Shown: piece after piece, positions 1 to 3,000 of the stretch
Position numbering within the stretch: position 1 is the first letter of the stretch
How the letters are laid out: each line of letters begins with the position of its first letter
Assembly (NCBI RefSeq): GCF_024700885.2
Contig: NZ_CP117016.1
Strand: one strand, 5' to 3'
DNA: 64,000 bases
DNA from: Escherichia coli
Lineage (GTDB): Bacteria > Pseudomonadota > Gammaproteobacteria > Enterobacterales > Enterobacteriaceae
Made by a program: the position numbers

Positions 1-3000
1 ATCACGCGAGACAACCTGTATTTCCGGATATTTTCTGAACCAGGTCGCCAGCGTACGCTGATCACGGCCGGGAAGCAGGACGAGGGGACGGTGAGTATCA
101 AGATTGACTATTAACATACCGCAGCAGTGGCCCCGATGCCACGCCCACTCATCAATACCGACATGAGGCGCGCCTGACTGTTTCGTCTCCGGGGTATTGA
201 TAACCCTGCGAAGAAGAGTATCAGCACTGCAACGGAGACCCGCTGCCGTTGCAGCCCGTTTTCCAGCCTCACCTCCAGCTATTAATCCCAGTTGACGTTG
301 TAAATTTTGTAACGCCTGTGAAGACTGTTGGTGTGAACCGGCGAAGGGAGCAAGCGACTCGGCAAAAATTTTACGTGAACAAGCTGGGTTACGGCAGTAC
401 CAGTGGCGGACGGAAAATACAAGCCATAGCGTCTGTCCTGATCAGGGTAGATGCTGTATCCGGCGCCGACAACAACTATGAACAGAGTCGCTACGCTTAA
501 AGCATTCAGGACATTGTGCTGTTTTGCGTTTTCCGTGGAGATGGAGGGTTATACCGTCAGAGCTAATAATTTGTCGACTGCATCGCCATCCGCAAGGTAA
601 CTGTAGAAGTGTCTTAAGAGAGTGCATTGGGTTGCCCATAACTTAAAACAGCTTAGATCCTTGTTCGCCAGAAAGTTTCATCCATTTTCTTCCACCCAGG
701 TTGCGGAAGAACCACTTTTCATCCGTCGTTGACAGATGTGAAGTATGCGGGAGAAAAAGTGAATATCTAACTGTAATAACTCAGACCGGTACGAGTACTC
801 GGGGCGTCTACAATCATTCAGGGCAAAGTGCTAAAATTTCTCTATCCCGGGATGCCCCTACCAACGCAGCACTCCCGGAGATATCATTACAGCTCTGCAA
901 CTGATTTCCGCGACTGAACCGCTCAGTTCCTATCCTTCCAGTTGCCTTCCTGCAGCCCCCCCTCCCTGCTGTATACCCCAGTACCACAACGCGGGCAGCA
1001 CTTTTCCCCCTCATAATCTTCGTCACACATCACACAAAACCACTTTCTCACCTTCACCGTATAATCCGGAACCGTCATGCCCTGCAGATGCAAACGACGG
1101 GCCTCTTTCTCTGCCGGGTCAAGCCAGGTGCATCGCAGCAGGATTTTCGCAGCAACAGTCATCTGGTCATGTTCAAACCACGGCGGTTGTCCGTCATTTC
1201 CCCGCTTAAGTGTTAACGGACAACCACAGGACACACAGCACAAAACGTCCTGTCGGTTGTGCTTCGCGGCTTCTTTCGCCGTAACAAAATGGCCTTTGCT
1301 GTCATTCGCCATATAGCAGTTCAGAATTCGCATATCTCCTCCTTGTATCTTGACAATTGGTTAAAATAACTGTGATTAGATTTGGCAAGGTGTATGCAGC
1401 CCGATCCCTCAAGGGGTTCATAGCCCGTAGCTCAGCGAATGGCGCATACACTGAGCCACTCATCTGAAACCCGAACAGTTGTCAGTACGCCATAACGCAT
1501 TTGCAAGGATGGGTAATCATGAGTCAGCCAGGTTCACTTTGTGTGGATATCGATGTTTCGAAAGCGATACTGGATATTGCCGCCAGCAGCGCTATTGAAC
1601 AATTTTCTGTCGGCAATGACAGTGATGGCTTTGACGCCATCATTGCTGAGTTGAGAATGTACGCCATTGCGCTGGTTTTAATGAAAGCCACTGGAGGACT
1701 TGAAACCGCCATAGTCTGTGCGCTTCAGGCAGAAGGTTTTGAGCTTGCCGTGGTTAACCCCAGACAAGCTCGTGACTTTGCCCGCGCCATGGGATACCTC
1801 GCGAAAACTGATAGTATTGATGCCAGAGTGCTTTCCCAGATGGCTGAGGTTCTCAACCGGCATCCGGAGCGGGAACGCTTTATCAGAGCACTGCCGGATA
1901 CTGAATGTCAGGTTCTCACTGCAATGGTAGTTCGTAGGCGGCAGTTGATTACGATGCTGGTTGCCGAGAGAAACCGGTTGCACCCTGCTCATCCATAGAA
2001 CAGGAAAAGCATTAATATCATCATCAAAGCACTGGAAGACGAGCTTGCGCGACTAGATGCTGACATGAACAGCCATATCCATAGCCACTTCAAAGAGCTT
2101 GCTAAGCGACTGAGCAGTATTAAAGGTGTTGGCACCATGACGGCTGCTGCGCTGCTGGCGGAAGTACCCGAACAGGGTAACCTCTCCAGGCGTGAAATCA
2201 GTGCGCTTGTCGGTATGGTTCCAGTAAACCGGGACTCGGGCACGATGAGAGGGCGACGAACCATCTTTGGCGGCAGGGCTGGTGTGCGAACAGCCCTGTA
2301 CATGGCAGCGCTTGTCGCAACCCGCTTTAACCCGGTAATAAAGGTGTTTTACATGCGACTGCTTGCCGCAGGAAAACCCAAAAAAGTGGCGCTGGTTACC
2401 TGTATACGCAAGCTGCTGACTATCCTGAACGCAATGCTCAGAAAGAACGAAGAATGGAATGAATCGTACCATCACGTTGCTCCATAATTTTTACGTTCAA
2501 GACAGTTGCTGAGCTGTCCGGGGAAGACTGAAACCTCCGGTCTGGCAGTGTGTGCAGTACCGCTCCCCATAATAATCGTGGTGACATTGTCTGCAGTGCC
2601 AGCTGGCTTTACGCACCACGGGTAAGGCATCCGGTACGAATTGCTGCAGACGTTTAATCAACTGTATTTCTCTGCGCTCCGGCCTGACATAAGGGCACTG
2701 TTGACCGTGCTCTGTCAGCCTGTCGTCAGTGTGTTCAAACCAGGGACGTTCAGTGTCGTATTGCGGATGGTAACTGAGTGCACTGCCACACAAGTGGCAG
2801 GTGTAGTTAGCATAAGGTGCGGCCTGTGCAGTACGGGCGCCCGTCAGACGTCCGTTGCCATCAAGAGCGATAAAGGATTTTGCGTACATAGTCATATTCC
2901 TCAGCCGCCAGACGACACGCAGGCAACAGCCGTCCCGGTACGGGCAGCGTGGTCAGGTGTGAATAGCGGTTTTCAGTTCAGTCTCAGAAGGGAAAATCAG

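What the first reader, a model, noticed from the sequence alone, without database searches (positions are those of the whole stretch)
923..2895. IS110-family element with a single amber codon in its transposase, sitting between two paralogous Cys-rich genes
The transposase is split into ORFs 1501..1998 and 2065..2487 that share one reading frame and are separated only by a TAG at 1996..1998; both conserved domains are otherwise intact. The element lies exactly between two same-strand paralogs (923..1333 and 2497..2895) that share a CxxC...PWFEH...CxxC...CxxC pattern. Either the IS inserted between tandem paralogs or the arrangement reflects IS-associated duplication.
Basis: seen in the sequence. 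Interest (0 to 1): 0.4.

Follow-up and report, generated by a model that had tools for sequence, protein, structure and literature searches.

The report
Dead IS110 bridge-RNA insertion sequence
This is an ordinary, inactivated copy of an IS110-family (bridge-RNA-guided) insertion sequence that landed in the short overlap between two neighbouring zinc-ribbon genes of the E. coli CP4-44 island and has stayed there, decaying, in about 12% of sequenced E. coli genomes.

Summary
An IS110-family transposase ORF (1519..2487, +) has a single in-frame TAG at 1996-1998 and lies between two same-strand paralogs (923..1333 and 2497..2895, both DUF7828 + Zn_ribbon_11, 32% identical). Comparison with an empty site and with intact relatives sets the element at 1344..2508 plus a duplicated CT core, 1167 bp in all. 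It inserted inside the native 13-nt overlap of the two genes. More than 3000 E. coli genomes carry the uninterrupted tandem pair, so the IS did not cause the duplication.

The left end encodes a two-loop bridge RNA. Its right target guide matches the flank 7/7, and guide and flank covary across relatives. That explains the "exact" position.

The copy carries more damage than the amber codon:
- The catalytic Glu of the DEDD motif is Lys (K56).
- The left target guide has AA where CU should bind the core.
- 15 otherwise conserved residues differ.
- All 10 coding differences among near-identical copies are non-synonymous.

Of 5426 complete genomes, 665 carry one copy each: 468 TAG, 193 TTG (Leu), 4 other. 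TTG appears older and TAG a late change. RefSeq already annotates the gene as an IS110 pseudogene. Low interest.

The parts
923..1333 (-). Gene A, a zinc-ribbon protein of 136 aa (DUF7828 + Zn_ribbon_11). It is the downstream member of the native tandem pair. Its Shine-Dalgarno sequence (reverse complement of 1336-1343, AGGAGGAG) abuts the IS left end.
   Evidence: RefSeq WP_001221604.1
1335..1343 (+). Left target (TCTCCTC, 1335-1341) plus the left copy of the CT core (1342-1343).
   Evidence: The empty site reads ...CATATCTCCTC-CT-GAGCTGTCC... in L004 and in more than 3000 genomes. Boundaries come from the alignment with the intact pN61 element and 13 relatives.
1344..2508 (+). Body of the IS110-family element (1165 bp; 1167 bp with one CT core). 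It has no terminal inverted repeats. The ends TGTATCTTG... and ...AGACAGTTG are conserved across the clade.
1376..1514 (+). Bridge RNA. Stem-loop 1 (1376-1467) carries the target-binding internal loop. Stem-loop 2 (1469-1514) carries the donor-binding loop.
   Evidence: RNAalifold consensus on 13 relatives: 38 pairs, 6 with compensatory changes. Single-sequence fold z = -2.4. No Rfam family matched.
1406..1412 (+). Left target guide, CCCTCAA. The non-core part matches the left target 4/5. The two core-binding positions are AA instead of the clade's CU, so the guide is degenerate.
1429..1435 (+). Right target guide, AGCTCAG. It is the exact reverse complement of core + right target CTGAGCT (7/7).
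   Evidence: permutation: none of 20000 reached the observed match
1475..1483 (+). Candidate left donor guide, ACAGTTG(TC). It is identical to the last 7 nt of the right end (ACAGTTG).
   Evidence: Read from the sequence; invariant in 13 relatives. The assignment is inferred by analogy with IS621 (PMC11208160).
1501..1507 (+). Candidate right donor guide, TTGCAAG. It can pair with core + left-end start CTTGTA, including one G:T pair.
   Evidence: Read from the sequence; conserved in relatives. Inferred.
1519..2487 (+). IS110-family recombinase pseudogene, 322 codons. D12, D98, D101 and S240 are present.
   Evidence: RefSeq annotates 'IS110 family transposase, internal stop'
1684..1686 (+). Codon 56, AAA (Lys), at the position of the catalytic Glu (E60 of IS621). 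102 of 103 relatives have Glu.
   Evidence: Mutating E60 abolishes IS621 recombination (PMC11208158).
1996..1998 (+). Amber codon 160 (TAG). Relatives have CAG (Gln). Sister copies of the same element have TTG (Leu).
2509..2515 (+). Right copy of the CT core (2509-2510) plus the right target GAGCT (2511-2515).
2497..2895 (-). Gene B, a zinc-ribbon protein (DUF7828 + Zn_ribbon_11) and the upstream member of the pair. The native C-terminus ...TAQEEICEF* is replaced by ...TAQQLS*. The last 14 nt (2497-2510) come from the IS right end and core.

Best explanation
This is a fixed, non-functional copy of an IS110-family insertion sequence of the IS621/ISKpn42 type, which carries its bridge RNA in the left end.

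How it got there (inferred from the sequence and the IS621 mechanism): when the element was active, its recombinase was guided by the bridge RNA encoded at 1376-1514. It recombined the circular IS at its CT core with the chromosomal sequence TCTCCTC-CT-GAGCT. That sequence lies in the 13-nt overlap between two tandem zinc-ribbon genes of the CP4-44 island, on the Shine-Dalgarno sequence of the downstream gene. This is why the IS sits 'exactly' between the paralogs.

Effect on the host genes (shown): the insertion duplicated the CT core, changed the last residues of the upstream gene, and separated the downstream gene from it by 1167 bp.

Decay (shown as sequence differences; loss of activity is inferred): the catalytic Glu became Lys, the core-binding CU of the left target guide became AA, and many conserved residues changed. 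In the sub-lineage represented by this window, codon 160 then went from TTG to TAG. The element is now inherited passively with the island, one copy per genome.
For: Family: both Pfam domains and NCBIfam transpos_IS110 match. The closest solved structures are the IS621 and ISCro4 recombinases.

Boundaries and CT duplication: these come from alignment to an intact 74%-identical element on plasmid pN61, from ends conserved in relatives, and from an empty site identical to the joined flanks.

Pre-existing tandem pair: the empty site covers at least 80% of the query in 3048 genomes. The native genes overlap.

Bridge RNA: a conserved two-domain fold has 6 compensatory pairs. Cognate loci match the right flank at 4.1 of 5 non-core positions on average, against 1.6 for non-cognate pairs; none of 20000 permutations reached this. 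The left guide gives p = 1e-4. The window's right guide matches 7/7.

Decay:
- K56 sits at IS621 E60.
- 15 substitutions fall at positions conserved in at least 97% of relatives.
- The left target guide has core-binding AA.
- All 10 coding differences among near-identical copies are non-synonymous.
- There is one chromosomal copy in each of 665 genomes and none on plasmids. All copies examined lie at the same locus.

Order of events: TTG is found in all basal lineages when polarised by outgroups.
Against: No activity was measured. Loss of function from E56K and from the AA guide is inferred from IS621 mutagenesis, not tested on this protein.

The left target guide matches the flank imperfectly. 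The original insertion may have tolerated a mismatch, or the guide may have mutated afterwards; the two cannot be told apart.

One strain (L004) has an empty site with flanks identical to the occupied haplotype. This could mean a precise excision and therefore some residual or trans-supplied activity.

The TTG-before-TAG order rests on 8 sequences and 3 informative sites. A recombinant history could mislead it.
Confidence: 0.9

Rival explanations
1. The IS generated the arrangement: the two Cys-rich genes arose by IS-associated duplication.
For: Only that the two genes share domain architecture and strand and flank the IS.
Against: The two genes are only 32% identical. They occur as an overlapping tandem pair without the IS in more than 3000 genomes and in several islands per genome. 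Apart from the 2-bp CT core, the IS flanks share no duplicated sequence.
Confidence: 0.02
2. The element is still functional: the amber codon is read through or suppressed, or the TTG allele encodes an active recombinase.
For: The frame is otherwise open over 322 codons. 193 genomes carry an uninterrupted TTG allele that RefSeq annotates as an intact transposase. One empty site has flanks identical to the occupied haplotype.
Against: All copies, including TTG alleles, have Lys at the catalytic Glu. Mutation of E60 abolishes IS621 activity. The core-binding dinucleotide of the left target guide is AA, and pairing to the CT core is strongly preferred in IS621. There is never more than one copy per genome in 665 genomes. 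All 10 within-lineage coding changes are non-synonymous.
Confidence: 0.04
3. The dead element has been co-opted, for example as a catalytically inactive RNA-guided DNA-binding protein, or as a spacer or promoter that changes expression of the downstream zinc-ribbon gene. On this view it is retained by selection.
For: It is retained at one locus in 12% of complete E. coli genomes. No frameshift was seen in the seven other copies aligned to the window. The insertion preserves the downstream gene's Shine-Dalgarno sequence (sequence).
Against: There is no sign of purifying selection on the ORF: 0 synonymous against 10 non-synonymous changes, plus a nonsense allele in 468 genomes. Diversity is very low, so retention is explained by recency and linkage to the island. 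No outward promoter was found in the consensus scan.
Confidence: 0.04

Closest known systems
IS621 (E. coli) and ISCro4, structurally characterised IS110-family bridge recombinases (PDB 8WT6, 9T56; PMC11208160, PMC11208158)
   Same: Same two-domain recombinase, RuvC-like DEDD plus Tnp with a catalytic Ser. Same CT core and no inverted repeats. The donor ends are similar (...ACAGTTG-CT-TGTAT... here). A bridge RNA of about 140-175 nt is encoded in the left end, with a target loop and a donor loop. The left guide reads like the top strand of the left target, and the right guide is complementary to core plus right target.
   Different: It is only distantly related in sequence (phmmer E about 1e-29). 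The right target guide is 7 nt rather than the 4 nt of wild-type IS621. The target is a gene junction and Shine-Dalgarno sequence rather than a REP element. This copy is inactivated (K56, amber codon, AA in the left guide).
ISKpn42 and unnamed relatives on enterobacterial plasmids and chromosomes
   Same: Same clade: 322-aa recombinases 80-87% identical to this one. Element length is 1164-1168 bp in the 12 relatives measured end to end, and the ends and bridge-RNA scaffold are the same. Full-length relatives occur on more than 1000 plasmids, the closest at about 81.5% DNA identity.
   Different: Those copies keep Glu at the catalytic position and Gln at codon 160, and almost all keep CU in the left guide. 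Their guides specify other targets. At 83% protein identity to the protein NCBI names ISKpn42, the window element would count as a different IS under ISfinder's usual identity criterion (my recollection, not checked here). I could not check whether ISfinder has named it.
DUF7828 / Zn_ribbon_11 zinc-ribbon gene pairs of CP4-type islands (next to YagK/YfjJ-family genes)
   Same: Both flanking genes have this architecture. They sit beside a YagK_YfjJ_C gene as in other island copies.
   Different: Here the pair is split by the IS, and the upstream protein has an IS-encoded C-terminus. The function of the family is unknown, and there was no PADLOC match.

Membership tests
IS110 family (bridge-RNA recombinase elements, IS110 subgroup) | N-terminal RuvC-like domain PF01548 and C-terminal Tnp domain PF02371 in one protein | tested here: met
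   PF01548 at 3.4e-18 and PF02371 at 1.4e-19, in one frame across the TAG. NCBIfam transpos_IS110 matches both halves.
IS110 family (bridge-RNA recombinase elements, IS110 subgroup) | Complete DEDD catalytic tetrad plus the catalytic Ser | tested here: not met
   D12, D98, D101 and S240 are present, but the Glu is Lys (K56). The element is a member by descent, but this copy is predicted to be catalytically dead (E60 is essential in IS621).
IS110 family (bridge-RNA recombinase elements, IS110 subgroup) | No terminal inverted repeats; insertion at a short core dinucleotide found on both sides of the element | tested here: met
   The occupied site reads LT-CT-[IS]-CT-RT and the empty site reads LT-CT-RT. 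The two terminal sequences read off are TGTATCTTG and AGACAGTTG, which are not inverted copies of each other; no dedicated inverted-repeat search was run.
IS110 family (bridge-RNA recombinase elements, IS110 subgroup) | Non-coding RNA in the left end with two internal loops, conserved in structure | tested here: met
   RNAalifold on 13 relatives gives two stem-loops with internal loops and 6 compensatory pairs. No Rfam model matched.
IS110 family (bridge-RNA recombinase elements, IS110 subgroup) | Target-loop guides covary with the flanking target sequence | tested here: met
   Across 11 loci, none of 20000 permutations reached the observed right-guide match, and the left guide gave p = 1e-4. 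In the window the right guide matches 7/7 and the left guide 4/5 at non-core positions.
IS110 family (bridge-RNA recombinase elements, IS110 subgroup) | Both target guides pair with the CT core | tested here: not met
   The right guide ends in AG, which pairs with CT. The left guide has AA where most relatives (7 of 10 other loci) have CU. This is a defect of this copy.
IS110 family (bridge-RNA recombinase elements, IS110 subgroup) | [quoted passage not shown] | not testable with these tools
   The sequence allows TTGCTT, 17 nt, then TAAAAT (1362-1367) across a hypothetical junction. This is inference only. The scan of the integrated copy found no such promoter.
DUF7828 + Zn_ribbon_11 zinc-ribbon proteins | Both Pfam domains above the gathering score | tested here: met
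   Gene A: DUF7828 104.6 bits, Zn_ribbon_11 64.7 bits. Gene B: 108.6 and 36.7 bits.

The most novel reading that the evidence does not exclude
Some members of this IS clade carry a left target guide that reads UCCUCCU, like the anti-Shine-Dalgarno sequence. The window's ancestor, Citrobacter L007, and Phytobacter and Kosakonia L011/L015 are examples. These copies sit on the ribosome-binding site just upstream of a start codon, with the gene reading away from the IS left end. If this is a systematic homing strategy, the sub-clade would target ribosome-binding sites and uncouple operon genes. The fixed copy here might then have a lasting regulatory effect on the downstream zinc-ribbon gene.
Probability: 0.1. 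Interest if true: 0.35.

Novelty: already known. Interest (0 to 1): 0.12.

Why it matters
It matters little beyond annotation. The case shows that the position of a dead IS110 copy can be explained by reading its own bridge-RNA guides. It also shows that an 'intact' ORF annotation, such as the TTG allele in O26 and other strains, can hide a catalytically dead recombinase. The element is a stable single-copy marker of one CP4-44 island haplotype, and the TAG/TTG polymorphism could serve for lineage typing. It is not a new mechanism.

Tried and rejected
- Rfam search of 600..3800 at E up to 1 found nothing. The bridge RNA was therefore defined by comparative folding.
- The consensus promoter and terminator scan found no junction promoter and no outward promoter.
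- PADLOC gave no hit for the zinc-ribbon genes, the YfjJ-like gene or the small zinc-ribbon gene.
- The left flank of Xenorhabdus L017 resembles the window's right target (GAGCTGTCC). I considered a shared target, but the L017 IS lies inside another transposase-like gene, so this is coincidence.
- I looked for an intact relative with the same guides as the window element. The nearest intact relatives (L036, L037, L035; 86-87% protein identity) are at other sites: L036 and L037 have different target flanks, L037's guides specify a different target, L035's guides do not match the window's, and L036's guides could not be read by my script.
- The target 12-mer TCCTCCTGAGCT has no other copy in the 64-kb window, even allowing 1 mismatch.
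- IS-mediated duplication, programmed readthrough and domestication were all considered and rejected (see the rival explanations).

Full report
**1. What is in the sequence**

The window is E. coli chromosome. Bases 800-3000 are 100% identical to several complete genomes, where RefSeq annotates 'zinc-ribbon domain-containing protein | IS110 family transposase (internal stop) | putative zinc ribbon protein'. The locus lies in the CP4-44-type island beside cobU. Downstream in the window come yeeS, cbeA, cbtA and yeeW, then sbcB, the his operon, an O3 O-antigen cluster and colanic-acid genes.

Translating 1519..2487 gives 322 codons with a single internal stop, TAG at 1996-1998. The N-terminal half matches PF01548 and the C-terminal half matches PF02371. 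NCBIfam 'IS110 family RNA-guided transposase' matches both halves.

Genes 923..1333 and 2497..2895 are both on the minus strand. Each has DUF7828 + Zn_ribbon_11, and they are 32% identical (E = 1e-16).

**2. Where the element begins and ends, and what it interrupted**

An intact relative on E. coli plasmid pN61 is 74% identical in DNA. It aligns with the window from CT|TGTATCTTG (window 1342) to AGACAGTTG|CT (window 2510) and not beyond. The same ends are conserved in relatives from Xenorhabdus, Citrobacter, Klebsiella, Phytobacter, Photorhabdus and others.

I joined the flanks with one CT and searched E. coli genomes. One locus matched at 100%, and the query was at least 80% covered in 3048 genomes, with a median of two places per genome. 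The empty site reads CATATCTCCTC-CT-GAGCTGTCC.

So the element is 1344..2508 plus one copy of a duplicated CT core, 1167 bp in total, with no inverted repeats. This is the IS110-family signature.

In the empty site the two zinc-ribbon genes overlap by 13 nt, and the upstream protein ends ...TAQEEICEF. In the window it ends ...TAQQLS, with the last three codons and the stop supplied by the IS right end.

The IS therefore inserted into a pre-existing, ancient tandem pair. It landed on the Shine-Dalgarno sequence of the downstream gene (reverse complement AGGAGGAG-ATATG). IS-associated duplication is excluded.

**3. Why exactly there: the bridge RNA**

IS110 elements of the IS621 type encode a bridge RNA in the left end. 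It has a target-binding loop and a donor-binding loop:
- The left target guide (LTG) has the sequence of left target plus core.
- The right target guide (RTG) is complementary to core plus right target (PMC11208160).

I aligned the 175-nt left ends of 13 relatives and folded the alignment. The consensus has two stem-loops with large internal loops, and 6 pairs show compensatory changes.

In the first internal loop the 3' strand of the window reads AGCTCAG (1429-1435). This is the exact reverse complement of CT+GAGCT, the core plus right flank. At the same columns pN61 has ATGTAAG (its flank is CT+TACAT), Xenorhabdus has CTGTAAG (CT+TACAG), Phytobacter has AGCATAG (CT+ATGCT), Photorhabdus has TTTAAAG (CT+TTAAA), and Salmonella L037 has TCATCAG (CT+GATGA).

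Over 11 loci, cognate guide and flank match at 4.1 of 5 non-core positions, against 1.6 for non-cognate pairs. None of 20000 permutations reached this value. For the left guide the figures are 3.7 against 2.4, p = 1e-4.

Candidate donor guides are invariant, as are the element ends: ACAGTTG at 1475-1481 and TTGCAAG at 1501-1507. The 'exact' position is therefore the programmed target of this element's own RNA.

Rfam 15 gave no match, so the RNA was defined comparatively.

**4. The copy is dead, and the amber codon is not the only defect and probably not the first**

- **Catalytic residue.** In the alignment to the IS621 and ISCro4 structures, window K56 (AAA, 1684-1686) lies at the catalytic Glu, E60 of IS621. 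102 of 103 relatives have Glu there. Mutating E60 abolishes IS621 recombination (PMC11208158).
- **Conserved residues.** The window protein differs at 15 positions that are at least 97% conserved among 103 relatives. These include G10D next to catalytic D12, E56K and Q160*.
- **Bridge RNA.** The LTG (1406-1412, CCCTCAA) matches the left target at 4 of 5 non-core positions. It has AA where most relatives have the core-binding CU. Pairing to the CT core is strongly preferred in IS621.
- **Copy number.** A 61-mer around the amber codon is present once per genome in 665 of 5426 complete E. coli genomes and never on a plasmid. Every copy I examined lies between the same two genes.
- **Alleles at codon 160.** 468 genomes have TAG, 193 have TTG (Leu), for example O26 strains where RefSeq calls the gene intact, and 4 have something else. 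Metagenomic copies with Tyr also exist.
- **Order of events.** I polarised the 13 variable sites among eight copies with four outgroups. The lineages that keep ancestral bases at 1547 and 2398 all have TTG, and only the window's branch has TAG. The likeliest order is CAG (Gln) in active relatives, then TTG in the already-K56 ancestor of this element, then TAG in this sub-lineage. All copies share K56 and the AA in the LTG.
- **Selection.** All 10 coding differences among these copies are non-synonymous, with 0 synonymous. Two intact relatives compared with each other differ by 106 synonymous and 40 non-synonymous codons. This points to relaxed constraint, not domestication.

**5. Comparison with what is known**

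The mechanism and architecture are those of IS621-type bridge recombinases. In sequence, the element belongs to a clade of 322-aa recombinases that includes ISKpn42 (83% identity by NCBI's name for P0088). Full-length relatives occur on more than 1000 enterobacterial plasmids, the closest at about 81.5% DNA identity. I could not query ISfinder, so I do not know whether this element has its own name.

The family-defining features tested here are met by descent. The exceptions are an incomplete catalytic tetrad and a defective LTG core, which are defects of this copy. RefSeq already flags the gene as an IS110 pseudogene.

**6. Open points**

- One strain (NZ_CP148426.1, L004) has an empty site whose flanks are identical to the occupied haplotype for 1343 nt on the left and 127 nt on the right, then mosaic. 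It could be the ancestral haplotype, a recombinant, or a precise excision. I cannot tell which.
- Loss of activity is inferred, not measured.
- Several clade members, including the ancestor implied here, carry an LTG of the UCCUCCU type and sit on ribosome-binding sites of divergently oriented genes. This is a small curiosity that I did not survey systematically.

**7. Verdict**

This is an ordinary, already-annotated, decayed IS110 copy. The 'single amber, otherwise intact' reading understates the decay. Interest is low.

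Noticed in passing
L004 5073-5094 (NZ_CP148426.1), equivalent to window 1331-1343 joined to 2511-2519: This is the only empty site whose flanks are identical to the occupied haplotype (1343 nt on the left, 127 nt on the right). Beyond that, gene B becomes mosaic from window position 2638. It could be the ancestral haplotype, a recombinant, or a scarless excision of the IS.
   Followed up: partly
L007 (Citrobacter braakii) about 113-127; L011 and L015 (Phytobacter, Kosakonia); window 1335-1343: Relatives whose left target guide reads TCCTCC(T/C), like the anti-Shine-Dalgarno sequence, are inserted on AGGAGGAG sequences. 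In L011/L015 and the window an ATG follows within 8 nt; in L007 the nearest candidate start is a GTG. The gene points away from the IS left end. This may be a target preference for ribosome-binding sites.
   Followed up: partly
L033 2053-3021 (E. coli O26 RM8426) and 192 other genomes: The TTG allele gives an uninterrupted ORF that RefSeq annotates as an intact IS110 transposase (WP_000081848.1). It still has Lys at the catalytic Glu, so the 'intact' annotation is probably misleading.
   Followed up: yes
window 1-640 (-): This is the 3' part of an ISL3-family transposase pseudogene (frameshifted, internal stop) immediately left of gene A. It is another decayed IS in the same island arm. Further left in the genome are IS3 and IS4 remnants and cobU.
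   Followed up: no
window 3056-3661 (-): This is a YagK/YfjJ C-terminal domain protein, called 'inovirus Gp2 family' in RefSeq. It has a weak sub-threshold hit to the replication-protein family REP_ORF2-G2P (23.8 bits against a 27.8 cut-off). It sits directly upstream of the zinc-ribbon pair in both occupied and empty loci.
   Followed up: no
window 3825-4025 (+): A 66-aa protein with an N-terminal CxxC...CxxC zinc ribbon and a hydrophobic C-terminal segment. RefSeq calls it a 'zinc-ribbon domain-containing protein'. There was no PADLOC hit.
   Followed up: no
L009 (JAIJJM010000559.1, 'MAG: Collinsella sp.'): This 2.2-kb contig is binned as Collinsella. Across the IS and both junctions it is identical to the window (and to E. 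coli L002) and carries the TAG allele; it shares L002's differences in gene B. It is almost certainly E. coli DNA that was mis-binned.
   Followed up: partly
plasmid collection, e.g. NZ_CP085104.1 21956-23121: 1042 plasmid records, mainly Klebsiella, Escherichia and Shigella, hold a match covering at least 80% of this element; the 11 closest true plasmid copies are full-length at about 81.5% DNA identity. The clade is therefore active and widespread elsewhere. The one '99.8%' plasmid hit is a 1.4-Mb record that is probably chromosomal.
   Followed up: no
window about 38300-39400 region and 52000-55000 (record NZ_CP017631.1 1924267-1925317): The far half of the window holds the his operon, yefM-yoeB, an O3-type O-antigen cluster with an ISAs1 transposase split into two ORFs next to galF, and colanic-acid genes. 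None of this is related to the finding.
   Followed up: no
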